Shown: piece after piece, positions 3,415-27,532 of the stretch
Layout: every line of letters begins with the position of its first letter
Numbering within the stretch: the stretch's first letter is position 1
Virus record (IMG/VR): IMGVR_UViG_3300030329_003696
Location: 32,001-96,000 of that record
Reading direction: 5' to 3' (one strand)
DNA: 64,000 nt
From: a virus
The notes under the pieces: model-generated
What the model saw: the letters and a program-made list of their open reading frames with translations, nothing else
Databases searched by the model: none
What the model was told of the DNA's origin: nothing
Position numbers and translations under genes: made by a program

Positions 3415-3430
3415 ATATATTATATCCCCC

Positions 3431-5791: not shown

Positions 5792-5794
5792 CTA

Positions 5795-6211
5795 TTAAGC
5801 CCTCACCGCTTTAATTTCAAAGTGTATTCCCGTCATATGGGTATCAACCACCTTGAGACCCAAGCCAGACACGATCTCTTCAATCGTCACGAGAGAAGAC
5901 GCAGAGCTAATAGATGAAACCACAGAGGACGCCTGATTTAGATCGATAATTCCGTTCAGTACTCCTTTACAAAAAAGTCTTATATCTGTTCCTCCGATGG
6001 AAAGCTCCCCATTCATTCTTAACTTAGTGGAAATAGCTGAAATTAATTCAGGGATAGCATCAATGGTAAAGTCGTCTAAAATATCAGTAGCTAATATTTG
6101 GTCACACTCGTTATTGACAATTTCGCTTAGATCTACGTTGTTTGTCGTAACAGTTATGTGGTGGTAGTTCTCTATTTTGTCTTGACCTTCTCTTAGAATT
6201 TGTAGCTTCAT
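5795..6211 (-). CDS. hypothetical protein, degenerate methyltransferase-like
   Basis: CDQILATDILDDF..KLRMNGELSI resembles SAM-MTase core lacking motif I. Confidence 0.4.
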   Translation of the reverse strand: MKLQILREGQDKIENYHHITVTTNNVDLSEIVNNECDQILATDILDDFTIDAIPELISAISTKLRMNGELSIGGTDIRLFCKGVLNGIIDLNQASSVVSSISSASSLVTIEEIVSGLGLKVVDTHMTGIHFEIKAVRA

Positions 6212-9632: not shown

Positions 9633-10629
9633 AGATTCCCTTCTCTATTTCGTAGTCCATTCTTTTCTGTTCTCTTTCCGGTTGCTTCATAGCCCACTTG
9701 AACATTTCGTCGATAAGTTCTTCTAGATTTGTACCATCGTGAAACCCAAGATTTCTAGGGTCTTTTGCCAACGTGTGGTCGCAGTGTGCGTGTTTAGCTT
9801 CATGACGACCCTCTACATGCTTCTTTTCTGCTTCAAAGCCATTCTTCCAAGCTACACGTTGAACCGTGTCTGCAAGCTCGTTAATCGTATATGCTTTGTC
9901 TGCACCTAAATTAAATGTATAACCATTACATCTATCGATTAAGGTTTCAAAGGGTTTCATGTAATACTTAACGTCTGAGAACGCACGTGTTTGTTCTCCA
10001 TCGCCATAAATCAACATCGGCTCGCCAGCGAGGACGCGACGAATAAAAATGCCCGCTACGTTACGATATTTATCCCAGATATTCTGATAGATACCAACAA
10101 CGTTATGTGGCCTAATAATAGTGTATCGAAGGCCGTGTTGTTCACTAGCAATCTTTATATCCATTTCAATAGCATACTTTGCAACCCCGTATGGGTCGAT
10201 GGGTGCTGGCCCCATCTTTTCGTTGAAGGGAGGAAAGTGGTTTCCGTATACCGCCATAGAAGACGTGAAGATCATCTTCGTATCATGTTCGATACATTGA
10301 TTGATGATATTAACACTCCCTAAAACGTTATTTGTATAATTAAAGTGTCTTATATAGGGCGATAACCCCTCAGCTGCGTAAGCGGCAAAATGAAAACAGG
10401 CAGCTACATCATTAAAATGGAAGATATTATTTAAAGCCTTACTTGCCCAACGGTCAGAAATATTAATGGGCCAGAATTCAAATTGTTCTGGAGGTGCTTG
10501 CGGCAGATAGTCTGAGTATCCACCGCTAAGGTCATCAATCCCAATAACCCTGTAGCCTTCACTTAAAAGGTGTCTACTAAAATGACTACCAAAAAGCCCA
10601 GCTGCTCCTGTTACAACAACGGTTCTCAT
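9616..10629 (-). CDS. NAD-dependent epimerase/dehydratase (UDP-glucose 4-epimerase-like)
   Basis: TGAAGLFG, FTSSMAVYG, PYGVAK (YxxxK), GDGEQTR. Confidence 0.92.
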   Translation of the reverse strand: MRTVVVTGAAGLFGSHFSRHLLSEGYRVIGIDDLSGGYSDYLPQAPPEQFEFWPINISDRWASKALNNIFHFNDVAACFHFAAYAAEGLSPYIRHFNYTNNVLGSVNIINQCIEHDTKMIFTSSMAVYGNHFPPFNEKMGPAPIDPYGVAKYAIEMDIKIASEQHGLRYTIIRPHNVVGIYQNIWDKYRNVAGIFIRRVLAGEPMLIYGDGEQTRAFSDVKYYMKPFETLIDRCNGYTFNLGADKAYTINELADTVQRVAWKNGFEAEKKHVEGRHEAKHAHCDHTLAKDPRNLGFHDGTNLEELIDEMFKWAMKQPEREQKRMDYEIEKGIYDYWK

Positions 10630-12311: not shown

Positions 12312-12312
12312 T

Positions 12313-12630
12313 TTATTCCTTATCCAAACATCCGAAGTCGAATTGATTAACCCTAAAAATGACTTCTGTGTCGCTTTCGGGTTCTAGGTTTTTAGCTGAG
12401 GCGTTTATGGTCATTTTCATACCTTCTTTACCCAATTTTGCGATTGTCCTTGCCCCACTATCCCAAGCTATGAATCTAAGATATGTAGAGTGTCTTTTCT
12501 TTTCACCCCTTTTATTTCTAAAATACTCATAGATATATAGAGTAAACTCGCAGTATTCAGCACCGGAATCTTCATCTATTTCGACCTCTGGGTCATCGTA
12601 TAGGTATCCCGTAAACATGCAGTTGTTCAT
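12313..12630 (-). CDS. ssb: SSB-like OB-fold protein (short, no canonical acidic-PF tail)
   Basis: MNNCMFTGYLYDDPE..FIAWDSGA. Confidence 0.65.
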   Translation of the reverse strand: MNNCMFTGYLYDDPEVEIDEDSGAEYCEFTLYIYEYFRNKRGEKKRHSTYLRFIAWDSGARTIAKLGKEGMKMTINASAKNLEPESDTEVIFRVNQFDFGCLDKE

Positions 12631-12648
12631 TAATTCTCCTTTATACGT

Positions 12649-12677
12649 ATAGTAGTCTACACGTCGTCATAAACCAA
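12649..12677 (-). promoter_or_regulatory. possible sigma70-type promoter for short ssb
   Basis: TTGGTT-17-TACTAT. Confidence 0.35.
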
Positions 12678-14237
12678 TTATATTTCGTGAATTTTATTGA
12701 CAATGAACGAATTATCCTTAGCCACGTCTCCACACAGAAGAAGGTTATTACCTTCATAAAGTATATACTGGTATTTATCTCTTGCCTCTGGGAACACGAC
12801 TACACTATCTAAGGAACATGTATTGTCCTCTATCGTAAGAAAAGCCATCTTCCTCCCCTTAGTTTTACCTCGTTTAACCGTGGTGGTCGCTACTCGGTTC
12901 ACATTAGCTGCTATGCAAAGGTTTTTGCCCGTCTTTCCGTTGAGAACATCCTTGCAGTAAGTATTTGCAACCGATGTGTCCGCTGAGTCAATTTTAGACA
13001 GGGATACTGGACAGCCCAAGAATTTGCCCTCCTGTTCAATGATCCATGCAGGATCATCATCCAAGCTGTATGGAGGGTTTTTGATCAAGTTTGCCTCGTT
13101 TTCCACTATCTGACTTCGTTCGACCTTACTTGTTCCCCCACCCATCTTTTTCGTGGGAGATAGATCTATAAAGCAGTCATACAGATTGTCCCACTGTTTG
13201 CTCTGATAATTCTTTACGACCCAGTTAGACTCTGCCTTAGTTAACTCTCTGAATATAAGGTACTCATAAAGTGCTCTATTTCTAGACGTGTTGGTTGCGG
13301 CTGTAGAGAAAAAGCCTATGGAACATAGTGCTTTGAAGGCTGTCGCATTAATTTTTGGCGACAGGTAAACAATGATGTCCATCCAAGAGAACTCGCTAGG
13401 GTCTTTGCCCGTTTCTTCAGACGCCTCCTGCACAGCCTTCATCACTTTATCGCCCGTTACCCCCGTAAGAGATTTAACGTCCTTGACCCCGAAGTATATC
13501 CCATCATCCTGAATGTTGAATTTGGACTCAAACGAGGAAATCTTGGGAATCTTCACTTCAAGGTCAAAAAGCTTGGCTTCGGAAACCAGTTCATAAATTT
13601 CTTGATGGGGGTCTTGTTTCTCATTCGCATGGTATAGGTAGGACAGGAAGAATTCCTTGGTGTGATTTGCTTTATACCAAGCGGACCAAAATGAGTCAAC
13701 CGCATACGCAACAGCGTGAGACTTGTTGAAGGAGTACCTAGACGACTTCTCGATCCAACCAAAGATCTCAGATGCGGTGTCCTCGTTGACTAATCCAGTC
13801 TGGTGACATCCTAGAATAAAGTCTCCTCGTATCATAGCCATTAGCTCTGCATCCTTTTTACCAATAGCTTTTCTCAGGTCATCGGCCTTCTTGAGGTCAA
13901 AACCTGCAAGCTTCTGTGCTATACGCATAGATTGTTCTTGATAAACAAGTACGCCGTATGTTGGCTTGAATATCTCTTCGAGAGACTCGTGTAGATACGA
14001 GACTTCTTCTTCTTTATTCTTTCTATCAACAAACCTTTGCGTCATAGACTTTCCGTCAATAATCGCCTTCAAACAGCCCGGTCTAATCAACGCTATCAGA
14101 GCCGCAAGTTCCTCTAGATTTGAAGGTGCTAGCCTTTTAGACCAAGCACGCCCAAGGTTACTCTCTAGTTGGAAAACCCCTTTTGTGAGGCCGTCCTTGA
14201 AGAGGTTCCATGTTTTCTCATCTTTATAATCAATCAT
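12678..14237 (-). CDS. dnaE: DNA polymerase III alpha, C-terminal half (fingers/HhH/OB)
   Basis: GVFQLES, LIRPG, TYGVLVYQEQ, LRKAIGKK, YSFNKSHA, MAFLTIED. Confidence 0.93.
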   Translation of the reverse strand: MIDYKDEKTWNLFKDGLTKGVFQLESNLGRAWSKRLAPSNLEELAALIALIRPGCLKAIIDGKSMTQRFVDRKNKEEEVSYLHESLEEIFKPTYGVLVYQEQSMRIAQKLAGFDLKKADDLRKAIGKKDAELMAMIRGDFILGCHQTGLVNEDTASEIFGWIEKSSRYSFNKSHAVAYAVDSFWSAWYKANHTKEFFLSYLYHANEKQDPHQEIYELVSEAKLFDLEVKIPKISSFESKFNIQDDGIYFGVKDVKSLTGVTGDKVMKAVQEASEETGKDPSEFSWMDIIVYLSPKINATAFKALCSIGFFSTAATNTSRNRALYEYLIFRELTKAESNWVVKNYQSKQWDNLYDCFIDLSPTKKMGGGTSKVERSQIVENEANLIKNPPYSLDDDPAWIIEQEGKFLGCPVSLSKIDSADTSVANTYCKDVLNGKTGKNLCIAANVNRVATTTVKRGKTKGRKMAFLTIEDNTCSLDSVVVFPEARDKYQYILYEGNNLLLCGDVAKDNSFIVNKIHEI

Positions 14238-14613: not shown

Positions 14614-15268
14614 CAGCAAACGCCTTATCAAATTTCATATTTCTGTATACTGCACGTCTTGATTTTTGTAGTTTAATAAAGATGTTTGCAGTGTCTTTAA
14701 CGTCTTGGAGGGCGTCATGAGCGTTGTCTCCGGAGAGACCCATGCGTTCTCTGAGGCTATCCATACTGATGGACTTTACGTTTGGATCTCCTTCAGTCCA
14801 AAGCCACACGTCATCCATAACATCAATTTTATAAATCTGGTGAAACAACTTCTGGGATTGTCGCTTTTCGTCCCAAGGCCCGTATTCTTTGCACAACCTG
14901 TTCACGATATGCATGTCATAACCGATAATATTAAAACCGGCGGGAATCGGTGCGAAGTATGGCGTTCCCTTCCAATTATATTTATTGACGAAGTTGCAGA
15001 ACTTTTTCCACACACCCTTCGGAAGCGGTGCTCTCGCCAGCTTCGATCTGGTCTGCCCAGTTACTTTCAACGCACCCTCTTCTAGTGGGTCAACTCCAGC
15101 AGCTATAGCCTCATCGTCATCAATAATAGGACGCATCATACTATTGAACTCACCCTTTAGTCTAAAGTTTCTTCCGTCTAGGGCAATCGCAGCGATTTGT
15201 GTAGGTTGGCATCGTAAAGGATTTCTACCGCCTGTCTCAAAGTCAAAAACAATTATGTCACGATTCAT
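14594..15268 (-). CDS. DnaQ-like DEDDh 3'-5' exonuclease
   Basis: VFDFETGG, GFNIIGYD, AHDALQD. Confidence 0.88.
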   Translation of the reverse strand: MNRDIIVFDFETGGRNPLRCQPTQIAAIALDGRNFRLKGEFNSMMRPIIDDDEAIAAGVDPLEEGALKVTGQTRSKLARAPLPKGVWKKFCNFVNKYNWKGTPYFAPIPAGFNIIGYDMHIVNRLCKEYGPWDEKRQSQKLFHQIYKIDVMDDVWLWTEGDPNVKSISMDSLRERMGLSGDNAHDALQDVKDTANIFIKLQKSRRAVYRNMKFDKAFADGNLYV

Positions 15269-16887
15269 ACTAACTCCTTGATCATCATTAGTTTATCCAA
15301 AAGGTTGATGCCTAAAACATCAAACTTAACGTGTCCGAGAGCCTCTAGGTCGGCCATTTCAAGGCCAGCGATCTTCTCTGTTCCGCTTTTAGGATTAACC
15401 ATAGGGCAAACTTTGTAAAGTTCTTCTGCCGATATTACAACACCGGCTGCATGTTTTCCTTGTGTCTTAAATGTTCCTTCTATGTCAATAGCCTGCTGAA
15501 ATAGTTCAGAATAATCACCCTCCAATTGACCCGCATCATTTATAAAACAATAGTCACGGAGGTCGTCTGGATTATTGAGCAATGCCCAACGAATAATCGA
15601 TCTGTCTTCTTCATCCATCTCGGCTAACTGGTCTGAGATAGCGGCTTCGTCTGGAATAGACTTAGTGATTTCATTCATTTCACTAAAACCGCAAGCATTG
15701 TTCACTCGCAACACTTCTTTCAAAGCACTGCGTCCCTGAAGTCTACCAAATGTTAACATCTGACTAACATTATTTTGTCCGTATTTATCTTTTAGGTAGG
15801 TAATGATTTCATCTCTTTTGCCACCGGGTACGTCCATGTCAATATCGGGTAGGGAGATGTGGTCATCTGTGTTACGACCGGCATTGTAGAATCTTTCAAA
15901 CAGTAAATCAAACTCAATGGGGTCTATCTGAGTTATACCAATGAGGTACGAGATTAGACAACCCGCTGCTGAACCACGCCCCGGACCTACCATCCACCCC
16001 TGAGTAACGCAGTAGTTAATAACATCCCAAACAATTAGAAAATAACCAAAAAGCTTGGCCTCTTCAATAACCTCATATTCGGAACGAAACCTATCCCCAT
16101 AAATCTTTTTCAGTTCTGGGTCTTTTATCTTGTGCGACAGAAGATCCGTCCACCCCTCACGAGCAAGCTCTCTAAGGTATTCCTTTTGAGTTTGTCCGTT
16201 CGGTGTATCGAATCTTGGTAGAATCGGTTGGCTAAGTATATTGTAGTTCTCGCACTTTTCAAAGATCTCGTCAAACGAATCAATCACTGGGTCTTCTGTT
16301 AATATCTTTGCTACTTCGGACCTATCTTTCAGGTAAAAGTCATTGGTCTCAAAGAAAACCGAGTTATCGATATCTTCTTTATTTGCTAATGATTTCTTAA
16401 TCTTTGGTAGCGTTGTCTTCATGCTTGAACATAATATGACCCTGTGTAATGGTGCGTGCTCCCTTTCTGTATAGTAGACATCCATAAAGGCTTCCGACTT
16501 CTTGTAAAAGTCCTTGCCTTTAATTGGTGATTTAGCTGGGTCTTCGGCAACACAGATAAAGTTCCCGTGGGAAGATAGCCTAACCAATAGTGGTTTGTCA
16601 ACAACTCCGTCCGAATCTATGCTGGAGACTATCTGTATTAGCTCAAGCCAGCCGGAGTGATTTTTGGCAAATAGCGAAAACCCATCAAAAGAACAGCCCA
16701 GTATGGGCTTTATATTATTACTTATGCACGCCTTGTAAAAAGTAACAGCACCAGATATAGACTTGTAGTCCGCAATTCCGCAAGCCGGAAAAGAATTTTG
16801 TGAGCATTTTTTAGCAAGCTCTCTAGGCTTAGAGAAACCCTTTTGTAGAGAATAGTGTGTGTAATTGCACAGTGGAAACCACTTCAT
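15265..16887 (-). CDS. dnaE: DNA polymerase III alpha, N-terminal half (degenerate PHP + palm)
   Basis: THYSL, GPGRGSAAG, LLFERF, LPDIDMD, GKHAAGVVI, KFDVLG. Confidence 0.93.
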   Translation of the reverse strand: MKWFPLCNYTHYSLQKGFSKPRELAKKCSQNSFPACGIADYKSISGAVTFYKACISNNIKPILGCSFDGFSLFAKNHSGWLELIQIVSSIDSDGVVDKPLLVRLSSHGNFICVAEDPAKSPIKGKDFYKKSEAFMDVYYTEREHAPLHRVILCSSMKTTLPKIKKSLANKEDIDNSVFFETNDFYLKDRSEVAKILTEDPVIDSFDEIFEKCENYNILSQPILPRFDTPNGQTQKEYLRELAREGWTDLLSHKIKDPELKKIYGDRFRSEYEVIEEAKLFGYFLIVWDVINYCVTQGWMVGPGRGSAAGCLISYLIGITQIDPIEFDLLFERFYNAGRNTDDHISLPDIDMDVPGGKRDEIITYLKDKYGQNNVSQMLTFGRLQGRSALKEVLRVNNACGFSEMNEITKSIPDEAAISDQLAEMDEEDRSIIRWALLNNPDDLRDYCFINDAGQLEGDYSELFQQAIDIEGTFKTQGKHAAGVVISAEELYKVCPMVNPKSGTEKIAGLEMADLEALGHVKFDVLGINLLDKLMMIKELV

Positions 16888-16927
16888 AGTTTGATCCTTC
16901 AATATTTATATTCAACTTGTCTACCCT

Positions 16928-16962: not shown

Positions 16963-17382
16963 TTATGAATTTTTTACCCTTTTAATTATATCTGTTGTTG
17001 AAATGTCCCTAGTGTAGGGTAGATATATCAGTAGGATCTCCCGCTCATCTAGCCATTCCTGCGTAAAATCCATCTGCTTGTAGTAGTCTCTTTTACACCA
17101 GTCGTCGCCAATGGCAATTATGTCCGGTTTAACAGAAAGTATAGCTGGCTTGCTATCTGAGCCACCTGAATTTTCTATAACTTCATCTGCACATCCAGAC
17201 ATTAATATGCTTTTCTTTCTTTCTTCAAAACTTAAAAAGGGTTTTTTACCCTTGTACTCCTCTATAAATTCATCTGTGTTTAAAGAAACAATAACTCTAC
17301 GTGACAATCTTTTGCAATTTTTTAGAAACTGCATATGCCCGTAGTGAAACAGATCGAAGGTTCCGCCGGTGTATAACTTCAC
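16963..17382 (-). CDS. cytidylyltransferase (TagD-like)
   Basis: GGTFDLFHYGH, IGDDW, YTRDISTT. Confidence 0.88.
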   Translation of the reverse strand: MKLYTGGTFDLFHYGHMQFLKNCKRLSRRVIVSLNTDEFIEEYKGKKPFLSFEERKKSILMSGCADEVIENSGGSDSKPAILSVKPDIIAIGDDWCKRDYYKQMDFTQEWLDEREILLIYLPYTRDISTTDIIKRVKNS

Positions 17383-18237
17383 TTAACGAAACATCCTTGA
17401 GTAAGTAGCCATCCCACCCTTAGCTGAAGCTATAAAATGGAAAAATATAAATTCGTTTTCTGAAAATTGCCGCAAATTTAAATCGCCACTACCAACCTGC
17501 CAAGGCGATCCACATATCGACGAGGACTGCTTGAAGTTGCTGTCCTCCCAGTCGTCAGCAAGTGTTAACTCTATAATATGCTCATCGTGAAACTTTGTTA
17601 GACCGGGGTTTAATTCCGATGCGATTATTTGCCTTCTCCATTCTTCCTGAAGAAAATTTATTCTTTTTTTTCCAGCCGTCGTTAGGGGGTTTATACCATA
17701 CTCGTCCATCCTGCTTATCACTTTTTCGCAAACAGACCTATTAAAGATTGAAAAGCCAGTGTCAAGATTCAATCGTCTCTTAGGGGTGATTCCCACTTCT
17801 TTAAAAGCTACCTCATGTAGGAATGGCTTTCTAGCTAGAGTCCAAGTGCGTTTGTCCAAACTCAAGCTCATTTGGGTTTTTGCGAAGTTGCTAAGTTCAT
17901 CTTCGTCGCTCTGATATATAGAGTGGTTTATGTAATTAAAACCATCTTCTATGCAACCTCTAATGTCAACATGTTTGTTTATTACAGCTGTATCTAAATC
18001 AACGAAGATGCCGTATTGAGCGTCAGTTTCCAAGAATCTGTACAATCTAAAAATCTTTCTCAAGAGCGGAGTTAAGTTATCATTGTCACCGATTTGCTTG
18101 ATTAGGTGATTATCACTAGACAATATGTTAAGCTTGATATCGTGGTTAGCGAAGTAAGATGTTAAACTTGCAGTCGCGTCTAGATGCCAGCGTTCAGTGT
18201 TTGGAATTGTATTTAGTAAGAATGCTTCAAATTCCAT
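17383..18237 (-). CDS. putative GT-A glycosyltransferase-like protein
   Basis: IFVDLD, LDTGFSIF, HDE, FHF motifs. Confidence 0.45.
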   Translation of the reverse strand: MEFEAFLLNTIPNTERWHLDATASLTSYFANHDIKLNILSSDNHLIKQIGDNDNLTPLLRKIFRLYRFLETDAQYGIFVDLDTAVINKHVDIRGCIEDGFNYINHSIYQSDEDELSNFAKTQMSLSLDKRTWTLARKPFLHEVAFKEVGITPKRRLNLDTGFSIFNRSVCEKVISRMDEYGINPLTTAGKKRINFLQEEWRRQIIASELNPGLTKFHDEHIIELTLADDWEDSNFKQSSSICGSPWQVGSGDLNLRQFSENEFIFFHFIASAKGGMATYSRMFR

Positions 18238-18994
18238 CTCTACCTCCCTTTATTTTGTTATAAATTTCCATGTGCTCTTCTACAGTTATCGGTAAAACAG
18301 ATTGAATAAATCCTACGGGAAATTGCCCGTAGCATTTTCTCTCTATAAAATTCTGTAGGTTTGTGTATATATGTTCTTCCTCTAAGGAGAAAATTGCAGC
18401 GTAATGAGTCTCCCCCAATGCATACATGTCTGCTATCATTGGCCAATAGTGCGTCCAATATAGTGCGTTTTCGGTACAGTCGTGATCTGGATGGATTGCT
18501 TCGTATAAGTTTACCGCCTCACAAAAATCTCTTGTTAGCTGAGTATGATAAATACATGGGGTGACTGAGCAGTGAATTGGTGGGTTTGGCTTACCGAGGT
18601 ATTTTGAACAAGCGTTCCACCATCGCGGCTTTACCTTTAGTCCGTGCGTTTTCATCTTAGGTTTTCCGTCTTTGAATAACATCTGCATAGCATCCCCACG
18701 TTGCATAAAGAAGCAGTCTGCATCCATAGTCATAAACCATTCTGTTTCAATATGTTTGCTGGCCATCAATTTTATTATTTGCTGAATACGCCACCCCGTA
18801 TTGTTAGAAACCATATCCATATCAATGATATCCGAATCTGAGTGTGTGGACTTCAAAAATTTTGAGTCCGAGATAAGAAGGTGCTCGAAATTATAAATAT
18901 ACTCCATTGAAGGTTTCTGTATATTTTCGTAGAGCCAAGCGTCCTTATGCTTAGATCCAATTGGGGTTACGATGGTTATCTTATCAGATCGCAT
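18227..18994 (-). CDS. DUF6492-like nucleotide-diphospho-sugar transferase
   Basis: GWRIQQIIKL..MDADCFF..VTP. Confidence 0.65.
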   Translation of the reverse strand: MRSDKITIVTPIGSKHKDAWLYENIQKPSMEYIYNFEHLLISDSKFLKSTHSDSDIIDMDMVSNNTGWRIQQIIKLMASKHIETEWFMTMDADCFFMQRGDAMQMLFKDGKPKMKTHGLKVKPRWWNACSKYLGKPNPPIHCSVTPCIYHTQLTRDFCEAVNLYEAIHPDHDCTENALYWTHYWPMIADMYALGETHYAAIFSLEEEHIYTNLQNFIERKCYGQFPVGFIQSVLPITVEEHMEIYNKIKGGRDGI

Positions 18995-20898
18995 CAGTCT
19001 TCTTTCCTGTCGAGAAAAAATTTATAAAACCTTTTAGACGCATGTCTTTTATCTTCAACAAACTCAAATATTCCATCCTCATTGATGTATATGTCATTAT
19101 CTAGGTCTAATTCACAATCCGTTATTATGTCGTGCCTAGTAACATATTGTCTGTTTTTAGAGTCTCCGTGCCAAATATGAAATGCGGGCCAAGGGCAAAA
19201 GGTTGAATTAAAATGTAGCTCCGCTATGTTATCTATAGTTTCTAGCATGAGCTTGGAATAGGTTTTGCCAAACTCTTTAAGTGCTCGATGTTTCGTACCA
19301 CCTATTAAAGCTGACATAATCCTTTGTATATCTAGCTGCCTTACTATACCCATGCAAAAGTATTCGTCACCACTACCTATTACAGCATTTGGCCAAGGGG
19401 ACTCACCTATCTTTTTCAACGAGTCAACCCTTGCCCCCCAAGCCAATCCTGGGTTTCCTACATATGGGTTGATTTCAACTCCGTCAAACTGACTCGGAAT
19501 TTTTGCGGATTGATCCTGTAAAGATGACACCCTTCCCCTTTTTATCATCTCAATGTTACCGTATTTATCAGACCACGCAATCACATCAAACAGCTGAACA
19601 AAGTCAAAGCCACTCTTCATTTTATCCAATGCGTACTCTAACCATTTAGGACTTTGAAAACAAGCGTCGTGATCAATCCAAAAAAAGTATTTTTTATTTT
19701 TGTCGATGTTTTTGAAAGCTAGATTTAGTAGGGACTCCTTTTGCCATAGACAATTTTTATCTAAAGATGCTGGTATTACAATGGAGTTTGGTATCTCTGG
19801 TTCTCTACCATCAAAGACAATCTCATAACACTTTACGAATGGTGCTATATTTTTTAAACTTTTTATCCATAACTTATATGTCTTCGTGAGCCTTTTGGAC
19901 TGTATGGCGTTATAGTGGATTGTAACTATCTCTACTTCGTCCATGTTATCCGGCATGGCATAAGAGGTGGGCAGTTTCCAGTTTTTAGAAATGGCCTCGT
20001 ACTCAGACGTTACACCGCTGACTAATTGTTGCAGCAGGTTTTTTCTAGCCTTCTGTTTTCTCTCCCCGTTCACATGTTGAACATAAGAGGTTTTTAGCCC
20101 GTCCCAAAAGCCGCTGGTTGCTAGGCAATTATTCCACCTTCTATCTAACCTAAAAAACTTATCATCGGGTAAGCACATAGAAAGATATTGTTGGTCAAAG
20201 CACCATATTTGAGGATAAGGCTCGCTAGGCTGCTTATAGTATTCGCAGCATGAGTTTGGTATAACAAGAACCCCGCTGTTGATCATAAACCTTGGGATGT
20301 TTGAATCAAACGGTCTACCAAATGCCTTATTTATAGTTTGATATTGGCTGATTATCCATTCGCGATCAGTCCAGTCGTGGTATTCATCGTATGCAGATAT
20401 CTTGTCGTCCGGAGTAATTCTAAAAAGATTAGGAGCGTTATCTTTCACCATAACGTCGCAGTCCAAGAATACTGTTTTTTCATAGACGCTGGTTACGTGA
20501 TAGAGCCTGAACTTGTTCCCAATCGGCCATTCTTCACATTGGTCTCCGGTTAGCTCTATGTAGTCTGCACCGCATCTCTCGGCATAAGACTTTATTGAGT
20601 CCCTGCTAATGTCTAGAAGTTCAGTTGCCGATTTGTTTGCGGGAATAACACAGACTGCAAACTTACTATTTTGCTCTGGAAGTTCGTCATAAAAATTAAA
20701 AACCGGAACAAAGTGTTCTCGTTCCTTAACCTTTCTTACGCTTTTAGACATGTTACTAAAAAATTTCTTCCTTTGCTTCTCAGTGGCGGATTGACACCAA
20801 GCAAAGTTGGGCGGAGAAATACCCATCTCCATGTTGAAGATAGGGCAAAAACCCGCCCGTTCACATTGACATTTAGATAAATCTCGGTCTTCCATCAA
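18994..20898 (-). CDS. two-domain glycosyltransferase-like fusion (GT8-like + GT2-like)
   Basis: FLDCDV, INSGVLV, DQQYL; second domain WQKESLLN, WIDHD, IGSGD, HIWHG. Confidence 0.7.
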   Translation of the reverse strand: MMEDRDLSKCQCERAGFCPIFNMEMGISPPNFAWCQSATEKQRKKFFSNMSKSVRKVKEREHFVPVFNFYDELPEQNSKFAVCVIPANKSATELLDISRDSIKSYAERCGADYIELTGDQCEEWPIGNKFRLYHVTSVYEKTVFLDCDVMVKDNAPNLFRITPDDKISAYDEYHDWTDREWIISQYQTINKAFGRPFDSNIPRFMINSGVLVIPNSCCEYYKQPSEPYPQIWCFDQQYLSMCLPDDKFFRLDRRWNNCLATSGFWDGLKTSYVQHVNGERKQKARKNLLQQLVSGVTSEYEAISKNWKLPTSYAMPDNMDEVEIVTIHYNAIQSKRLTKTYKLWIKSLKNIAPFVKCYEIVFDGREPEIPNSIVIPASLDKNCLWQKESLLNLAFKNIDKNKKYFFWIDHDACFQSPKWLEYALDKMKSGFDFVQLFDVIAWSDKYGNIEMIKRGRVSSLQDQSAKIPSQFDGVEINPYVGNPGLAWGARVDSLKKIGESPWPNAVIGSGDEYFCMGIVRQLDIQRIMSALIGGTKHRALKEFGKTYSKLMLETIDNIAELHFNSTFCPWPAFHIWHGDSKNRQYVTRHDIITDCELDLDNDIYINEDGIFEFVEDKRHASKRFYKFFLDRKED

Positions 20899-21458
20899 GT
20901 CCTCTTCACGGCAAGTCTATAGCTTTTAAAAATAACTTCCGTAGACCACCCCTTAGTCATCTCAACAAAACAATCAATTGCCACTTTTGGCATCTTGTGT
21001 CTTTGGCCACCATGATTATTATCCCATAGGTAATCGTCAAATAAAATTACACAACCCTTTTTAATAAGCCTGAATGATTGGATGGCATCACTCATTACAT
21101 CAATTGCTTCATGACTACCATCAACGTAGATACCGTCAAAGAGCTGGTCTTCCAATGTCGGAAGGGTGTGCTGTGACTCACCCCTAATCACTTCTATTCT
21201 GTCTTTAAGGTCTTCCATATTGTCTAAGAATAGATTGTAGTGTTCGTTATCAACATCGCCCCGCCACCAGTCAAGACAATAAAGCTTGTCCTCTGGGTGA
21301 TTGAACATGTTCTCAACGATCCACCTAGATGTTCTACCCTCAAAACATCCAATTTCTAGGAAATTGATGGGGTGCTCCCTTTCCTCGAAGAGTTTTGGGA
21401 ACACTCTAATCATATCCTGCGAAGCAACCGTGGTCCAGTTTTGCGTGTACCTTACCAC
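20895..21458 (-). CDS. SAM-dependent methyltransferase (Methyltransf_24-like)
   Basis: LEIGCFEGR, FDGIYVDGSH, LFDDYLW. Confidence 0.88.
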   Translation of the reverse strand: MVRYTQNWTTVASQDMIRVFPKLFEEREHPINFLEIGCFEGRTSRWIVENMFNHPEDKLYCLDWWRGDVDNEHYNLFLDNMEDLKDRIEVIRGESQHTLPTLEDQLFDGIYVDGSHEAIDVMSDAIQSFRLIKKGCVILFDDYLWDNNHGGQRHKMPKVAIDCFVEMTKGWSTEVIFKSYRLAVKRT

Positions 21459-22084
21459 GCCCTACAACTCCAGTAACGAGCTTTCCATCTCGGCCCCGGA
21501 TTATCGCAGTTATGGCGTGCCCTAAAACTTTTTCTGCGTTTTGGATTATCTTTTTTGATCTCCATGTTGGGATCTCCAAAGTTGACCTTAACCACATTCC
21601 CTTTACCATTCTTCACATAGACTGACATTTTTTTAGGACCATCTGGTGTTCTAAATGGCTTGCCAAGTTTGACCTTTCTACCCTGATACTCTGCCGCCCT
21701 AACCGGAACTAGATTCCTACCATTTTTTTGGTAGACACCTTTTCTCTCGTACTCGTAAACCTCGCCGGTCTTAGGGTCTTTGTATTTATATTTATTCTGG
21801 GCCTTCTTCCAAGACTCAGGATCTGGTCTGTCGGGGTCTCCCTTTTTTGCGGGCTTGTAGTCCTTACCTTCACGTTCTTTCTTCTTGCGGATGTTCTCCC
21901 ATAGACCCGGTTTAGCTTCTGAGATATCCCAGTCTTCAACCTCAGACTCTTCGTAAAATACTTCTTCGGCAGAAACATATTCTTCCTCTGCCGGTACATA
22001 ATAATTTTCCTCTGTAATTTCTTCTTCTGAGCCGTATGATTCAAAATAGTAGTGTTCATCAGCTTCAGATATGTAATCAGGCAT
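21452..22084 (-). CDS. conserved large-virus hypothetical protein (acidic N-terminus, basic modules)
   Basis: GLWENIRKKK and KVNFGD..RKSFRARHNC..ARYWSC modules recurrent in large phages. Confidence 0.6.
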   Translation of the reverse strand: MPDYISEADEHYYFESYGSEEEITEENYYVPAEEEYVSAEEVFYEESEVEDWDISEAKPGLWENIRKKKEREGKDYKPAKKGDPDRPDPESWKKAQNKYKYKDPKTGEVYEYERKGVYQKNGRNLVPVRAAEYQGRKVKLGKPFRTPDGPKKMSVYVKNGKGNVVKVNFGDPNMEIKKDNPKRRKSFRARHNCDNPGPRWKARYWSCRAW

Positions 22085-22092: not shown

Positions 22093-22758
22093 CTAAAAGT
22101 GTGGTAGTTCTGGAAATAGTTTATATCGTATATCTTCCCACACAGCACCAGTAATAATCATTGATGCCTCGTTGTCGGAAGGGTAGTGTACGCCCATAAG
22201 CATTCTAGCCATCCCAGCCATCTGAACCTTGTCAAAAAAGTGTTCTGAAAACTGTGGATATTTAGCTGCTAAGATGTAAGCACTCAAAGCGGCACCAGCC
22301 GTATGTCCGGATGGATAAGCTGGAGTTTGTGCGGTGTGAGAATCGAGCAAGTTGATGTCTATACCGTATTTCTCGGCAAGCTGATAAGGCCTTGGTCTGT
22401 TGTGTCTGTGTTTTAAATTGAGAATGATTGGTAGGATTATACTCCAAGACTTGTCAAATATTTCCTTGGGAAAAGTTATATTTAGCTTTCGTAGGGTCTT
22501 ATGAAACAAATCGTTGGGTTCTCGGTCTACCAGTTTAATTAAATCAACTTGAGAGTTACTTCTGTTTCTTGTCAGATTAGAAAGATACACAAGTTCTTTT
22601 TTGGTTGTCTCACTATTATTTTCTGGAGGGTCCGGAAGAATATCGTCCCAACCAATAGTAACCTTGTTAGACACCTTCCAAGTTCTTGTCTTGTCGGTGT
22701 ACTTCATGTTCTTAATTTGTTCGGATATAAATTTATCCGCACCGATTATATAGTTCAT
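22093..22758 (-). CDS. PAP2/acid phosphatase family protein
   Basis: KxxxxRPRP, YPSGH, RMLMGVHYPSD. Confidence 0.88.
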   Translation of the reverse strand: MNYIIGADKFISEQIKNMKYTDKTRTWKVSNKVTIGWDDILPDPPENNSETTKKELVYLSNLTRNRSNSQVDLIKLVDREPNDLFHKTLRKLNITFPKEIFDKSWSIILPIILNLKHRHNRPRPYQLAEKYGIDINLLDSHTAQTPAYPSGHTAGAALSAYILAAKYPQFSEHFFDKVQMAGMARMLMGVHYPSDNEASMIITGAVWEDIRYKLFPELPHF

Positions 22759-23039
22759 TGCTGTACCATCATATTCTTTGACCTGTTATGTTCGTCGCAT
22801 AGTGGACACATGTCCTGTTTACCAGCCGGATGTATTTCTCTGTCGTGATGTATCATTAAAATACCCTGAAGTATCTGTGTATCTCTAATCATCGAGTGTT
22901 CATTTATTTCTCTAAGTGCTGGATCGGGAGCCACAATAACGTTGGGCGTTCTTAGTTCCCTATACATGTAAGCACTAAAACCTAAGTTACATAAACTGAT
23001 TGCAAACAGCACGTATGCTGCACATCTAAAAAATTTCAT
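22755..23039 (-). CDS. small membrane-anchored hypothetical protein
   Basis: N-terminal hydrophobic helix; H..H..CPLC. Confidence 0.55.
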   Translation of the reverse strand: MKFFRCAAYVLFAISLCNLGFSAYMYRELRTPNVIVAPDPALREINEHSMIRDTQILQGILMIHHDREIHPAGKQDMCPLCDEHNRSKNMMVQQ

Positions 23040-23050
23040 TTTGACACCTG

Positions 23051-24262
23051 CTAGGAAAATAGTTCGGAAATTACTTTTCCTGAATTAGCTATTTTCATAG
23101 GTCGCCCACTATTACTTGTGTAGGTGGTTTGTAGCGAAATGCCAAGAGCCTTACAAACTGAGGCCATAACATCTTGGGATGAATATGCCATTGACTCCAC
23201 TCGTGTGCCGTCTTCGTTAGTTTCACCAACGGCTATGCCGCCGTTCATGCCAGCACCGCCAACGACAACACTCCAGCTTCTCGCCCAGTGATCTCGTCCA
23301 GCGTTTTGATTGATACGTGGAGTCCTGCTAAATTCACCCATCCATATGATAGCTGTGTCCTCCAATAACCCTCTTTGCTCTAAGTCCTCTACTAACGCAC
23401 TCATGCCTTGATCTAGCATGGGTAGTTTCGTGTCTCTTAAGGTTGGGAAGATGTTCTGATGATTATCCCATCCACCTAAACCAACTTCTACAAATGGAAC
23501 TCCAACCTCTACTAAGCGTCTAGCCATCAAGCATCCTTTGCCAAAGCTGTTATCCCCATACCTGTCCCTTACAGATTGTGGTTCTTTTGCTACTTTGGTT
23601 GCGTCCATCTCTGTGCTTGTCAAGACGTTGAAGGTCTTTCTTAATATTTTCTGATGCTCCTTTGCCATACTTCCCCGATTAGTGTTGATAAAATTAGTTT
23701 CTATCATATCGAGAACTTGTGCTCTTTGATAAAATCTTTCATCTATCTTTATGTTGAGATTTCTAATGTTGCCATCACTATTGAGAACCAACGGAGAAAA
23801 CTCTGCACCTAAGAAGCCTGCCCCCATACTCCCACCATTTACAGATATAAACTGTGGAATCATAAGCTCTCTGTCTAATTGCTTAGAGATGACGGAGCCA
23901 TAACTTGGGTGAACCATACTTTGGCTTGGAACATATCCTGTGTGCATGTAGTATCTGCCACGCATATGATCTGCTTCTCTGGTACTCATGCTACGGATGA
24001 TTGCCATGTTGTGCATCTGCTTGGCCATTAATGGCATGTGCTCGCAGATTTCAACGTCGCCAGTCGTAGAGATTGGCTTAAAAGGCCCACCAGTAGCAGC
24101 TCCGGGTTTTAGATCCCAGATATCCATAGTAGATGGTCCACCGCCCATCCAAAGTAGGATGGCCGATTTACCGTTTTTCTTTAGCTGCTGCTCATTAGCT
24201 TTGAGCGTCGTGGTTAAGGTGGCAACTCCCGCTAGGGATGTTAGAAATTCTCTTCTTTTCAT
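23051..24262 (-). CDS. DUF1501 family protein, Tat-exported (copy 1)
   Basis: KRREFL; LWMGGGPSTMDIWD; ARRLVEVGV; GWDNH; GEFSRTP..GRDHW. Confidence 0.92.
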   Translation of the reverse strand: MKRREFLTSLAGVATLTTTLKANEQQLKKNGKSAILLWMGGGPSTMDIWDLKPGAATGGPFKPISTTGDVEICEHMPLMAKQMHNMAIIRSMSTREADHMRGRYYMHTGYVPSQSMVHPSYGSVISKQLDRELMIPQFISVNGGSMGAGFLGAEFSPLVLNSDGNIRNLNIKIDERFYQRAQVLDMIETNFINTNRGSMAKEHQKILRKTFNVLTSTEMDATKVAKEPQSVRDRYGDNSFGKGCLMARRLVEVGVPFVEVGLGGWDNHQNIFPTLRDTKLPMLDQGMSALVEDLEQRGLLEDTAIIWMGEFSRTPRINQNAGRDHWARSWSVVVGGAGMNGGIAVGETNEDGTRVESMAYSSQDVMASVCKALGISLQTTYTSNSGRPMKIANSGKVISELFS

Positions 24263-24263
24263 A

Positions 24264-24641
24264 TTAAAACCTAAAGTGGAAGAACAGCCCACTGAATGGG
24301 GCGGGATAAACCGGCACGGGCTGTGGTTGAATAATGACGGGAGGTCCGTAATAGTGATGATGAATCATTGGCGGATATACCCTGTACTGATATGGATAAA
24401 CGTATGGCCTACCGATTATTATGCTTCCATGTCTATAGTTATGACTGGGTCTAACTTGGGGCTGCTGAGGCCTCTGCCAATCTTGTTTTCCAAAACCAGA
24501 AGGTCTTTGCGGTTGTGGCCTTGTAAAATCCCTAGGGACGCTCTTTACAGTCGGCGGTTTAATAACTTTACGCTCAGGCTGTTGTGCTTCAGCAGACAAC
24601 GGTATAAAAAACAAACATAACAGTGATGCTAAATATTTCAT
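24264..24641 (-). CDS. secreted Pro/Tyr/Gln-rich low-complexity protein
   Basis: signal peptide (AEA|Q), YPY/HHHYYGPP, C-terminal FFHFRF. Confidence 0.6.
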   Translation of the reverse strand: MKYLASLLCLFFIPLSAEAQQPERKVIKPPTVKSVPRDFTRPQPQRPSGFGKQDWQRPQQPQVRPSHNYRHGSIIIGRPYVYPYQYRVYPPMIHHHYYGPPVIIQPQPVPVYPAPFSGLFFHFRF

Positions 24642-24835
24642 TATGCAGCCTCGCAATCTGGGCATTCACAACCGTCTTGACACACACATTCTTGAGTTGG
24701 GCATGGGCATTCGTTTTCGCAGATATCACAAATCACGGGGTTCTCCTTTGTGAACATATTTTTAATTTCATCTTTGTTAATTAAGCAGATTGCGGCAACA
24801 ATAATAACCGCTAAAAAAGGTATTTTAAACTTCAT
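24641..24835 (-). CDS. membrane-anchored Cys-rich (metallothionein-like) peptide
   Basis: TM followed by CDICENECPCPTQECVCQDGCECPDC. Confidence 0.6.
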   Translation of the reverse strand: MKFKIPFLAVIIVAAICLINKDEIKNMFTKENPVICDICENECPCPTQECVCQDGCECPDCEAA

Positions 24836-24845
24836 GGTATTTTCC

Positions 24846-26108
24846 TTAAATGAGAATGTCTGTTAGTATTTTGCCACCGTCTACAATTTCTATTGGGCGG
24901 TCACCGGGAGCCATAAGCTCTTTATCAGCGACAATACCAAGTCTGTTGTAAATAGTAGCTGCCCAGTCTTCTATATTAACTGGGTTTTGATCTGGTTCGC
25001 TCGCCGTAGCGTTGGAGGTTCCGTATGTCATCCCCCCTTTGATTCCACCGCCAGCCAAAACTGTACTGAATACTTTTGGCCAATGGTCTCTTCCTGCACG
25101 ATTGTTAATCTTTGGAGTTCTTCCAAATTCAGAAACCACACAAACCAAAGTAGAATCTAATAATCCACGTTGATCTAAATCTTCAATAAGGGTTGCAAAC
25201 CCTTGATCAAAAGCTGGTAGCTGACTTTTCATTCCGTTCGCTATGTTGTCATGCATATCCCATCCGCCATAGGTTAAAGTGACGAAGCGTGTACCAAATT
25301 CCACCAATCGTCGAGCGAGTAACATTCTAGCACCAGCGGTGTTTCTACCGTATTTGTCTCTGGTTGCCGCTGACTCCTTCTCAAGATCAAACGCATCTTT
25401 TGCGTTCTGGTCTCCTATTAGGCTATAGGCACGGTCATAAAAAGAATTGACAGCCGAGACGGAGTCGGCGTTTTGTTTTTTATTGAAGTCGGTATTTACT
25501 ATGTCTAGCACACGCCGCCTTCTGGAAAATCTCTCGTCTGGAACTGGAACTTTTAAGTCTCTAACCTCGAAGCCCTCGCTTGCCGGATCAGACCCTAAAC
25601 CAAACCCAGAATATGAGCTACTTAGATATCCAGTACCTGCATATTCATTGGGTTGGTTTGGTATGCAGACATATGGAGGAAGGTTTTTGCGTGGGCCAAA
25701 TTCATGTGCAACCACTGAACCCATAGATGGGTATTGAAGGGCTGGGCTAGGTCTATAGCCAGTAAACATATTGTGTGTCCCACGTTCATGAGCAGCCTCC
25801 CCGTGTGTAATACTGCGGATAATTGCAATCTTGTCTGCTACCTTGGCTGTTTTGCCCAATAGTTCTCCAAGGCGTATGCCCGCAACGTTGGTACTAATAC
25901 TACCAAGTGGTCCTCGGTATTCTAACGGGGCGAATGGCTTAGGATCAAATGTCTCCTGATGAGCCATTCCACCCGGAAGATAAATGAAAATAATACTTTT
26001 AGCTGGCCCTTCTTTACTATCGTAGTGTTTTTGATCTGCTCTAGCGAGAGACGCACCTAAAGTACCTAAAACGCCAGCCTTTAAAAAATATCTTCTTTTC
26101 ATCATCAT
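24846..26108 (-). CDS. DUF1501 family protein, Tat-exported (copy 2)
   Basis: KRRYFL; YLPGGMAHQETFDPKP; GWDMH; SEFGRTP..GRDHWP. Confidence 0.93.
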   Translation of the reverse strand: MMMKRRYFLKAGVLGTLGASLARADQKHYDSKEGPAKSIIFIYLPGGMAHQETFDPKPFAPLEYRGPLGSISTNVAGIRLGELLGKTAKVADKIAIIRSITHGEAAHERGTHNMFTGYRPSPALQYPSMGSVVAHEFGPRKNLPPYVCIPNQPNEYAGTGYLSSSYSGFGLGSDPASEGFEVRDLKVPVPDERFSRRRRVLDIVNTDFNKKQNADSVSAVNSFYDRAYSLIGDQNAKDAFDLEKESAATRDKYGRNTAGARMLLARRLVEFGTRFVTLTYGGWDMHDNIANGMKSQLPAFDQGFATLIEDLDQRGLLDSTLVCVVSEFGRTPKINNRAGRDHWPKVFSTVLAGGGIKGGMTYGTSNATASEPDQNPVNIEDWAATIYNRLGIVADKELMAPGDRPIEIVDGGKILTDILI

Positions 26109-26115
26109 TTCCTTG

Positions 26116-26256
26116 TTAGAATAAAAACCTTGACCACCAACCTTGGGATGCTCCCAAGAAGTACACTCCTACTAGAGCACCACCGATGAGGGCGGCACGT
26201 CTAATCAATCGGTGCTTTCTAATAAAGCTAGCGATAGGACCGTTAAACAGGGGCAT
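26116..26256 (-). CDS. 46-aa membrane peptide (not in ORF track)
   Basis: GGAGG RBS; MPLFNGPIASFIRKHRLIRRAALIGGALVGVYFLGASQGWWSRFLF; fills gap. Confidence 0.6.
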   Translation of the reverse strand: MPLFNGPIASFIRKHRLIRRAALIGGALVGVYFLGASQGWWSRFLF

Positions 26257-26272
26257 AGTTACCTCCATTAGG

Positions 26273-27532
26273 TTAAAGAATTACTTTTGCTTCACCCTCC
26301 AACAAATATCTGGGACGACCAGACATGTCAGTACGTTGAATCGCTCCATCAATTCCAAAATGGTCAAACAGCGTTGCTTGTAGATCGAGTGGTCCCACTG
26401 GGTTTTCTATGGGGCTATACGACCTGTCTGCTTCACCAATCGTTCTTCCTGATTGATAATTACCACCAGCCATCATCATTGGTGTAATTGCAGGCCAATG
26501 GTCTCTACCAGAGTTAGCATTGATTTTGGTTCTACCAAACTCTCCGGTAACTACCAGTAAAACTTTCTCATTTAAGCCTCTATCCCAAACATCTTGTAAA
26601 AATCCTGCAATCGCTTTGTCGATGGGGGGAACTCTTCCCTTCAATGACTTAGAAATATTACTATGCATGTCCCATCCACCATAGTGCAGGGTGATGAACT
26701 TGGTTCCATACTCAACTAATCTTCTTGCTAATATCATTTGTTCACCAATGTCGTTGGCCTTTTCAGAACCGTACAGAGCTTTTGTCGTTTCTGATTCTTG
26801 ATCTGTAGCAAACGCATCTTTAGCAGAACCAAGAATCACGTCATAGGCTTGCCCCTTATAGAAACCAACTGAATCAGCACTCTTCCCCTGAATACTTTTT
26901 GATGCTGAACCAAGTGCTCCCAATAGATCCTTTCTAGTGTTGAATCTGTTAATCTCAATCCGTGGTTTAAGATTATCCTTATTGGATGGGTCAAATGGTT
27001 TGTATGCACCACCAAGCCAAGCTCCCTCATCCCCCTCGATTTTGCCTTGCTTCACATAAGAAGGCACTCCATTTCGAGGGTGGTTGGTTCCATACACTGA
27101 AGATATCAGCGAACCAAAAGAGGGGTATTTAGCAGTGGAGGTGGTTGTTCTTTCTGGATTATAATGCCCAGTCATCATAAAGTGGGTACCCTGTCTATGT
27201 GAGGAATCTTTATGACTAAACGAATTAACCACGTTTAACTTAGCTGTGTGTTTAGAAAGCTCGTACCAGTCCTGACCTAAAGTAATGTTAGTACTGGAGT
27301 CATGCGTAGCACCGTTTACTGGTCGCCACTCTGTGGGTACCGTGTCCTTTGGTGCGTGAAAAGTTTCAAACTGCGTAGGACCGCCACCAAGCCACACCCA
27401 GACAACAGCTTTGTCATTCAGGCTCTGTGCATTAGCGGCAAAGACTTCATCAGAGAAGCCTGCCATTGTCATCCCCGCTCCTATAGATCCAACCCTAAGA
27501 AAATCCCTTCGATTAAAGATAAAATCGAGCAT
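26273..27532 (-). CDS. DUF1501 family protein, Tat-exported (copy 3)
   Basis: NRRDFL; WLGGGPTQFETF; GWDMH; GEFGRT..GRDHWP. Confidence 0.92.
   Translation of the reverse strand: MLDFIFNRRDFLRVGSIGAGMTMAGFSDEVFAANAQSLNDKAVVWVWLGGGPTQFETFHAPKDTVPTEWRPVNGATHDSSTNITLGQDWYELSKHTAKLNVVNSFSHKDSSHRQGTHFMMTGHYNPERTTTSTAKYPSFGSLISSVYGTNHPRNGVPSYVKQGKIEGDEGAWLGGAYKPFDPSNKDNLKPRIEINRFNTRKDLLGALGSASKSIQGKSADSVGFYKGQAYDVILGSAKDAFATDQESETTKALYGSEKANDIGEQMILARRLVEYGTKFITLHYGGWDMHSNISKSLKGRVPPIDKAIAGFLQDVWDRGLNEKVLLVVTGEFGRTKINANSGRDHWPAITPMMMAGGNYQSGRTIGEADRSYSPIENPVGPLDLQATLFDHFGIDGAIQRTDMSGRPRYLLEGEAKVIL

What the first reader, a model, noticed from the sequence alone, without database searches (positions are those of the whole stretch)
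22755..27532. Phage-borne array of three Tat-exported DUF1501 paralogues without their usual partner genes
Seen: three divergent full-length DUF1501 proteins, each with a twin-arginine signal (RREFL, RRYFL, RRDFL) and intact GGxxxxxxxD, WDxH, EFxRT and GRDHW motifs, separated by small secreted or TM peptides. Established: DUF1501 is massively expanded in Planctomycetota/PVC, usually paired with DUF1549/DUF1553 proteins, and functionally unknown. No such partner lies in this window. Inference: an undescribed class of auxiliary genes that remodels or hijacks the host periplasmic DUF1501 system (nutrient scavenging, receptor masking or superinfection exclusion). It also points to a planctomycete host, for which few phages are known.
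Basis: partly seen in the sequence, partly recalled or inferred. Interest (0 to 1): 0.85.

Follow-up and report, generated by a model that had tools for sequence, protein, structure and literature searches.

The report
Phage cassette of planctomycete DUF1501 subunits
A widespread family of large marine phages carries one to four exported enzymes of an unstudied planctomycete family. At least three were captured separately from different host gene modules, and they seem to plug into the host's own haem-protein partners, which the phage leaves behind; this gives a first testable model for one of the phylum's largest unexplained protein systems.

Summary
The array is real. The window lies on a 152.6-kb phage contig mis-binned in a Dehalococcoidia MAG. 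It carries three intact Tat-signal DUF1501 genes (order C-B-A), and no DUF1549/DUF1553 partner is on the contig.

The cassette (C/E-B-D-A, 1-4 copies) recurs in dozens of IMG/VR contigs, at three or more genomic sites, under strong purifying selection (dN/dS 0.03-0.06).

The genes are not phage duplicates (single-clade p=1.6e-40). A and B are 66-77% identical to the DUF1501 of two different conserved Planctomycetia modules, closest in low-GC marine Pirellulales-like MAGs. C belongs to an old, apparently phage-only lineage.

The fold is alkaline-phosphatase-like with a remodelled, fully conserved metal site. A predicted complex docks phage A by a helical hairpin onto the C-terminus of the host DUF1553 partner (0.76 against best control 0.01; the mark was reached by 58/80 solved and 2/110 mismatched pairs).

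Best reading (0.55): the phage supplies active subunits for host-made periplasmic scaffolds. The chemistry is unknown. I found no paper describing this; the scan noted DUF1501 genes in other phages before.

The parts
26273..27532 (-). DUF1501 type C (419 aa, RRDFL Tat signal). Old, apparently phage-only lineage; best cellular relative 40-42%; first gene of the cassette, 20 bp after the PD-(D/E)XK exonuclease.
26116..26268 (-). 50-aa peptide with one hydrophobic segment; in 5 of 80 viral loci.
24846..26108 (-). DUF1501 type B (420 aa, RRYFL). Orthologue (66-77%) of gene 1 of the four-gene DUF1501 / PPC / Big_2-PSCyt2-PSD1 / PSCyt1-WD40 module of Planctomycetia. Putative site H107, D284, H286, E327, R330, H342.
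24641..24835 (-). 64-aa peptide: N-terminal hydrophobic anchor plus a metallothionein-like Cys-rich tail; in 24 of 80 loci.
24264..24635 (-). 123-aa Pro/Gln/Tyr-rich protein with a signal-peptide-like N-terminus and a conserved aromatic C-terminus (FFHFRF); in 26 of 80 loci.
23051..24262 (-). DUF1501 type A (403 aa, RREFL). Orthologue (66-75%) of the single-copy DUF1501 that follows a 571-aa PSCyt2/PSD1 gene in hosts.
23621..23767 (-). Helical hairpin of A (mature residues 142-190) predicted to dock on the C-terminal NSNEFILNH segment of the host PSD1 domain. Its sequence is type-specific and shared between each phage type and its host orthologue.
22755..23039 (-). 94-aa membrane-anchored protein with a conserved HH-x4-H...CPxC cluster (possible metal site); follows A in most loci (51 of 80); no known family.
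22093..22758 (-). PAP2-superfamily phosphatase/haloperoxidase-like gene, motifs intact, no signal peptide; near the cassette in 18 of 80 loci.
21452..22084 (-). 210-aa protein (C-terminus matches phrog_7595); in 42 of 80 loci, often inserted between DUF1501 genes.

Best explanation
The cassette is an auxiliary gene module by which a family of roughly 150-180-kb tailed phages of Pirellulales-like planctomycetes supplies the small, Tat-exported, metal-binding subunit of several host periplasmic DUF1501-DUF1549/DUF1553 complexes, and leaves the large haem-c scaffold subunits to the host. SHOWN: phage origin; separate capture of A and B from two different conserved host modules (D from a third host subfamily); absence of the partner genes; purifying selection as strong as on replication genes; alkaline-phosphatase fold; intact export signal and conserved His/Asp/Arg site. 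MODELLED: phage A binds the host PSD1 C-terminus through a helical hairpin. INFERRED: the proteins fold with a metal in the cytoplasm, leave by the host Tat system and dock on existing host scaffolds, each type on its own cognate scaffold. This would keep up or retune several periplasmic activities during infection, as cyanophage psbA does for photosystem II. The chemistry is probably turnover or binding of a phosphate- or sulfate-type anionic group, coupled to the partner's haem, in organic-matter or nutrient acquisition. That last step is the weakest.
For: Host orthologues: A 66-74%, single best hit in 5 of 5 planctomycete genomes, next best at most 45%. A's partner is present in 110 of 121 genomes of the order, with A adjacent in 23 of 30 loci. 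B 65-77% in 80 planctomycete-type loci with the three-gene partner block, matching the module of PMC3542564. One phage clade for A+B+C is rejected, p-AU 1.6e-40. dN/dS: A 0.035, B 0.043, C 0.056, against primase 0.054 and RecA 0.014. Site residues (His, DxH, EFxRT, RDH) are invariant in all phage copies. Complex of phage A with the host partner: score 0.76, best of 3 controls 0.01; the mark was reached by 58 of 80 solved and 2 of 110 mismatched pairs; runs agree in at least 72% of contacts; partner pLDDT at least 86. No solved structure of either family was found by sequence, so a pass from memory is unlikely. Inside the hairpin, 22 of 34 predicted contact positions have the same consensus in phage and host, against 4 of 15 non-contact positions (Fisher p=0.028, positions not independent). 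PSCyt2 is absent from 23 of 24 viral records, two of them 94% and 100% complete.
Against: No function is known for the host system, so 'supplementation' rests on analogy. The complex used a stand-in host (MAG SP166), and an alignment holding 24 host A rows. The pass may therefore reflect host-host co-variation, and close cousins of a true partner also pass. Only A was modelled. C has no close host orthologue, so its cognate scaffold is unknown. Interface positions are no more conserved than the protein as a whole (0.79 against 0.86). The host link rests on gene phylogeny only.
Confidence: 0.55

Rival explanations
1. Stand-alone periplasmic scavenging enzymes: each DUF1501 works without a partner, releasing phosphate or sulfate from different substrates for phage nucleotide synthesis.
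For: AP-superfamily fold, closest to NPP/ENPP enzymes (Z 19.5, rmsd 3.1, 244 aligned). A PAP2 gene is often adjacent and PhoH is on the genome. Some host DUF1501 genes have no adjacent partner (PMC3542564; the C-like host gene).
Against: A and B come from host modules that are nearly always partner-linked, and they keep the partner-facing hairpin residues. The canonical first-strand metal Asp and the Ser/Thr/Cys nucleophile are replaced, so ordinary phosphatase or sulfatase chemistry is doubtful.
Confidence: 0.2
2. Decoys or jammers: the phage copies occupy host scaffolds, or the Tat route, to block a receptor, a superinfecting phage or a host stress or defence signal.
For: The same docking model fits. 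Type content varies between phages (C or E; with or without B and D), the cassette is mobile, and the C lineage has radiated widely in phages, as arms-race genes do. The companions are small envelope peptides.
Against: Putative catalytic residues are invariant in every phage copy, and whole-gene dN/dS is 0.03-0.06. A decoy should keep the hairpin and let the site decay.
Confidence: 0.15
3. The phage copies form their own hetero-oligomer, or use the small companion proteins (94-aa His/Cys protein, Cys-rich peptide) as replacement partners or metal chaperones.
For: Fixed gene order with gaps of a few bases; the 94-aa gene follows A in most loci.
Against: Any of B, C and D can be missing or swapped, which is unlike a fixed stoichiometric complex. 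The companions bear no resemblance to PSD1.
Confidence: 0.08
4. Assembly chimera or neutral, recently captured host DNA.
For: The contig sits in a cellular MAG bin.
Against: The bin's cellular part is Dehalococcoidia with no such genes. The array recurs in dozens of viral contigs, depth is even, codon use is ameliorated and selection is strong.
Confidence: 0.02

Closest known systems
DUF1501 (PF07394) + PSCyt2/PSD1 (DUF1549/DUF1553; PF07583/PF07587) modules of PVC bacteria (Kamneva et al. 2012, PMC3542564)
   Same: Same family, Tat signal and conserved motifs. B is the orthologue of gene 1 of the paper's four-gene module; A is the orthologue of a near-universal two-gene module.
   Different: Phage-borne. 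DUF1501 genes from different modules are gathered in one mobile cassette and the partner genes are left behind. It includes a lineage (C/E/F) with no close cellular orthologue found.
Cyanophage psbA/psbD auxiliary genes (own knowledge)
   Same: Proposed logic: the phage supplies one subunit of a host multi-protein complex and uses host-made partners.
   Different: Periplasmic, unknown chemistry, several different host complexes targeted at once; the logic is inferred here, not shown.
Alkaline phosphatase superfamily: NPP/ENPP, PafA, formylglycine sulfatases
   Same: Core fold (Z 19.5 to ENPP6, 19.3 to Xac NPP, about 16-17 to sulfatases) and a probable Asp/His/His metal site.
   Different: First-strand Asp replaced by Pro/Gly; His at the nucleophile position; S/G-E-F-G in place of S-D-H-G; an added helical hairpin; 9-17% identity.
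Phage phosphate-scavenging auxiliary genes (phoA, pstS, phoH; own knowledge)
   Same: Exported host-derived enzymes of a related fold in marine phages; PhoH is on this genome.
   Different: No phosphatase activity shown; non-canonical site; the host orthologues are partner-dependent by gene context.

Membership tests
DUF1501 (PF07394) | Full-length Pfam match above the cut-off | tested here: met
   341, 378 and 218 bits against a cut-off of 27
DUF1501 (PF07394) | Twin-arginine signal peptide | tested here: met
   RRxFL motif plus hydrophobic stretch in A, B and C; an RR motif was found in 75 of 77 A and in all C, D and E phage ORFs (the B pattern match was loose). Export itself is untested.
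DUF1501-PSCyt/PSD module (PMC3542564) | Adjacent PSCyt2/PSD1 gene | tested here: not met
   None on C7, C9 or C13, in the closer viral loci, or in 23 of 24 viral records; present in L074, L076 and L077
DUF1501-PSCyt/PSD module (PMC3542564) | Orthology to module-linked host DUF1501 genes | tested here: met
   Met for A and B; not for C (best 41%, with only 5 candidates scored per genome in the wide search)
DUF1501-PSCyt/PSD module (PMC3542564) | Physical binding to the PSD1 partner | tested here: inconclusive
   The model supports but does not show it: 0.76 against best control 0.01; 58/80 solved and 2/110 mismatched pairs reach the mark
Alkaline phosphatase superfamily | Core alpha/beta fold | tested here: met
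   Model pLDDT 92.6; Z 19.5, rmsd 3.1, 244 aligned to ENPP6
NPP / alkaline phosphatase / sulfatase enzymes | First-strand metal Asp and Ser/Thr/Cys(FGly) nucleophile | tested here: not met
   Pro/Gly/Ser at the Asp position and an invariant His nine residues before the TG motif. Mapped by motif spacing and secondary structure, not by residue-level superposition.
NPP / alkaline phosphatase / sulfatase enzymes | Hydrolytic activity | not testable with these tools
   Needs an assay
Phage auxiliary gene | Host-derived gene in a true viral context, under purifying selection | tested here: met
   Flanked by phage exonuclease, primase, DnaB, recombinase and RNR; the sister phage has a terminase; dN/dS 0.03-0.06
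Phage auxiliary gene | Expressed during infection | tested here: inconclusive
   Contigs at 99% or more identity from one metatranscriptome sample cover parts of A, B and C, but the run was selected by this query and DNA carry-over is not excluded

The most novel reading that the evidence does not exclude
DUF1501 is the exchangeable catalytic subunit of a large family of planctomycete periplasmic haem-metalloenzyme complexes. It docks by a specificity hairpin on the DUF1553 C-terminus, and a whole phage family has built a plug-in cassette that reprograms several such host complexes at once, including with a phage-evolved subunit (type C) that has new specificity or His-based chemistry.
Probability: 0.35. 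Interest if true: 0.88.

Novelty: new variant of a known kind. Interest (0 to 1): 0.72.

Why it matters
DUF1501-DUF1549/DUF1553 modules are among the most expanded unexplained gene systems of Planctomycetota. One DUF1501 query met 34-171 candidate loci per genome, and the papers found give no function and no structure. Phages have picked out a few members from that crowd, separately and repeatedly, and keep them as tightly as replication genes. That marks which modules matter most and offers natural partner-free constructs. The docking model (hairpin on the PSD1 C-terminal motif) is a first structural hypothesis for how the host system assembles and how many paralogues could find their own partners. 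The genes also point to a host, marine Pirellulales-like planctomycetes, for a common phage family; the B query found no match among the INPHARED phage records and no PHROG family covers the three proteins.

Tried and rejected
- Duplication inside the phage: rejected.
- Several captures of B: the tree splits phage B, but monophyly is not rejected (p 0.39), so this is left open.
- The MAG organism as host: its cellular contigs are Dehalococcoidia-like, lack PSCyt2/PSD1, and its own DUF1501 is a distant DUF1800-linked type. C7, C9 and C13 are tetranucleotide outliers (0.88-0.93 against 0.96-1.00).
- tRNA-based host assignment: about 80% identity to both planctomycetes and the MAG, uninformative.
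- PDB sequence searches for DUF1501 and for the partner: nothing.
- PHROGs and INPHARED: no match.
- Promoter and terminator scan: no excess over shuffles.
- Profile alignment to sulfatases: weak (probability 39%, shallow template). It supports the first-strand and SEFG mappings but did not align the nucleophile motif.
- Atlas search for the 94-aa protein: only leads under 0.9.
- Metatranscriptome contigs cannot rank genes or show transcription.
- The phylum-wide search for a C orthologue scored only 5 candidates per genome, so 'no host orthologue' means not found.
Full report
Setting. The window is G000:C7:19373-83372. C7 is a 152.6-kb contig with a long one-strand block of replication and metabolism genes and an opposite-strand block of very large virion-type genes. 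PHROGs names an exonuclease, primase, DnaB, recombinase, RNR and PhoH next to the array. Contigs C9 and C13 of the same bin are a second, related phage: they are collinear with C7, and C9 carries a terminase in a ~13-kb stretch that C7 lacks. The rest of the bin is a Dehalococcoidia-like cell. The three phage contigs are tetranucleotide outliers, so they are most likely mis-binned.

Observation. Three minus-strand genes match PF07394 over its full length. In transcription order they are C (26273-27532), B (24846-26108) and A (23051-24262), with B and C 36% and 28% identical to A. All have RRxFL signals. Four small ORFs between and after them are conserved in relatives. No DUF1549/DUF1553 gene is on C7, C9 or C13. 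One DNA run covers 15-35 kb at an even depth of about 6-8, and GC3 of the three genes (0.35-0.43) matches the core genes.

Spread. A scan of IMG/VR confirmed 475 DUF1501-coding stretches; a scan with C alone confirmed 143. In 80 A-anchored loci the proteins fall into types A, B, C, D, E and rarer ones, 70-87% identical on average within a type and 23-39% between most types. The order is nearly always C(or E)-B-D-A. Among 41 C-anchored loci with at least 5.5 kb downstream, 12 are CBDA, 11 CBA, 5 CD, 4 CB, 4 C alone, 3 CA, 1 CBD and 1 CAB. The sister phage has C-B-D up to its contig end. The block sits in at least three different neighbourhoods (after the exonuclease, between RNR and PhoH, before a glycosyltransferase/protease block), so it moves as a cassette with its small companions. 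All 24 larger viral records searched have 1-4 copies. PSCyt2 is found in one of them, G428 = L074, which with L076 and L077 carries a PSCyt1/PSCyt2/PSD1 gene beside a further DUF1501. dN/dS is 0.035 (A), 0.043 (B), 0.056 (C) and 0.037 (D), in the range of primase (0.054) and the exonuclease (0.030) (unsaturated pairs only, some samples small).

Origin. B has cellular orthologues at 65-77% in 80 loci, nearly all Planctomycetota. There it is followed by PPC, Big_2-PSCyt2-PSD1 and PSCyt1-WD40 genes, exactly the four-gene module of PMC3542564. A has one orthologue at 66-74% in each of five planctomycete genomes, directly behind a 571-aa PSCyt2/PSD1 gene. That partner occurs in 110 of 121 genomes of the order, with A adjacent in 23 of 30 loci. 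D is 59% identical to a third host subfamily. C has no cellular match above about 42%. Its nearest 50%-clusters are short-signal proteins; the three I traced lie in phage contexts, one of them alone at the same site as in the window, and they form one branch with E and F (99% SH-aLRT). A single phage clade for A, B and C is rejected (p-AU 1.6e-40). All phage B sequences group with six low-GC marine MAGs, including Pirellulales ALOHA_A2.0_43 and SP166 (94/99). This is the best pointer to the host, but it is gene phylogeny, not a direct link.

Structure. B folds with pLDDT 92.6 and C with 90.5. B matches the alkaline phosphatase superfamily, best ENPP6 and Xac NPP (Z 19.5 and 19.3), then sulfatases. 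By motif spacing and secondary structure (inference; partly supported and the weak PF01663 hit): D284, H286 and H342 take the place of the Asp/His/His metal site; the first-strand Asp is Pro or Gly; S-D-H-G reads S/G-E-F-G; and an invariant His (H107) lies nine residues before the TG motif, where those enzymes have their Ser/Thr/Cys nucleophile. These residues and the nearby arginines are invariant in all phage types. So the site looks kept and active, but it is not a textbook phosphatase or sulfatase.

Docking. Phage A was folded with the host partner from MAG SP166: score 0.76, best of three controls 0.01; the mark was reached by 58 of 80 solved complexes and 2 of 110 mismatched pairs; the runs agree in at least 72% of contacts; partner pLDDT at least 86. 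The interface is A's helical hairpin (mature residues 142-190) on the partner's C-terminal region, centred on residues 510-525, the W..LNSxEF..NH ending that the B-module partner shares. No solved relative of either chain was found. Within the hairpin, phage and host consensus agree at 22 of 34 contact positions but 4 of 15 others (p 0.028). R156, L160, E164, R172, G173 and H179 are invariant in both. Each type has its own hairpin sequence, shared with its host orthologue, and the R-x-x-x-R-x-x-(L)-L core survives in C and E. Limits: the host is a stand-in, the alignment held host rows, cousins of true partners also pass, and B and C were not modelled.

How it most likely works. Shown: capture, selection, export signal, fold and absence of partners. 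Modelled: binding of A to PSD1. Inferred: during infection the phage makes the ~45-kDa Tat subunits, which dock on host-made haem-c scaffolds, one type per scaffold, and keep up or retune several periplasmic activities at the cost of 1.2 kb per gene instead of the 3-9 kb of a whole module (0.55). Rivals: stand-alone phosphate or sulfate scavengers (0.2), decoys (0.15), a phage-only complex with the small companions (0.08), artefact (0.02). The papers found tie PSCyt genes loosely to carbohydrate use or electron transfer and state that the function is unknown.

Novelty. Full-text searches found no paper on DUF1501 in phages. One unrelated-looking phage DUF1501 is in BFVD (16% identity), and one Atlas cluster near C is mostly viral, so the sequences are in databases but undescribed. 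The scan's own notes report DUF1501 genes in other phages; I did not test those. What is added here is the multi-capture cassette across a phage family, the named host modules and the docking model. I rate it a new variant of a known kind (phage auxiliary genes; a known family of unknown function), interest 0.72.

Noticed in passing
window 63084-63400 (-): Circularly permuted (two-piece) tmRNA, tag GVENYAMAA (Rfam RF04321). The sister phage on C13 has an ordinary one-piece tmRNA, tag AEKNFALAA.
   Followed up: partly
G000 contigs C7, C9, C13: A GTDB MAG of 1.36 Mb (89.6% complete, 1.4% contamination) holds about 310 kb, or 23%, of DNA from two related large phages; the cellular part is Dehalococcoidia-like.
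   Followed up: yes
L074:9180-13421; L076; L077: A more distant group of phage contigs carries a full PSCyt1/PSCyt2/PSD1 gene plus its own DUF1501 (type G) as well as a partner-less A; G428 has a third DUF1501 elsewhere.
   Followed up: partly
window 22755-23039 (-): 94-aa membrane-anchored protein with invariant HH-x4-H and CPxC, in 51 of 80 loci; no family found; possible metal-binding companion of A.
   Followed up: partly
window 24641-24835 (-): Membrane-anchored metallothionein-like peptide with nine Cys in about 27 residues, in 24 loci.
   Followed up: partly
L179:5063-7174; L180:10127-12262; L182:5386-7473: In several hosts the A module is followed by an ECF sigma factor and an anti-sigma-like protein; in G001 a second PSCyt2/PSD1 match lies at that gene, suggesting a link between the A module and signalling.
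   Followed up: no
window 20-14237 and 16963-21458 (-): Long run of glycosyltransferase, epimerase, methyltransferase and cytidylyltransferase-like genes, with a split DnaE (12678-14237 and 15265-16902) separated by an exonuclease and a small ORF.
   Followed up: no
window 58090-59322 (-): Peptidase M19 (membrane dipeptidase) gene, conserved in the sister phage; an unusual phage gene.
   Followed up: no
L285 and L288 (IMGVR_UViG_3300025264_002028): One 103-kb viral contig has two C-type genes about 23 kb apart: a duplication or an assembly repeat.
   Followed up: no
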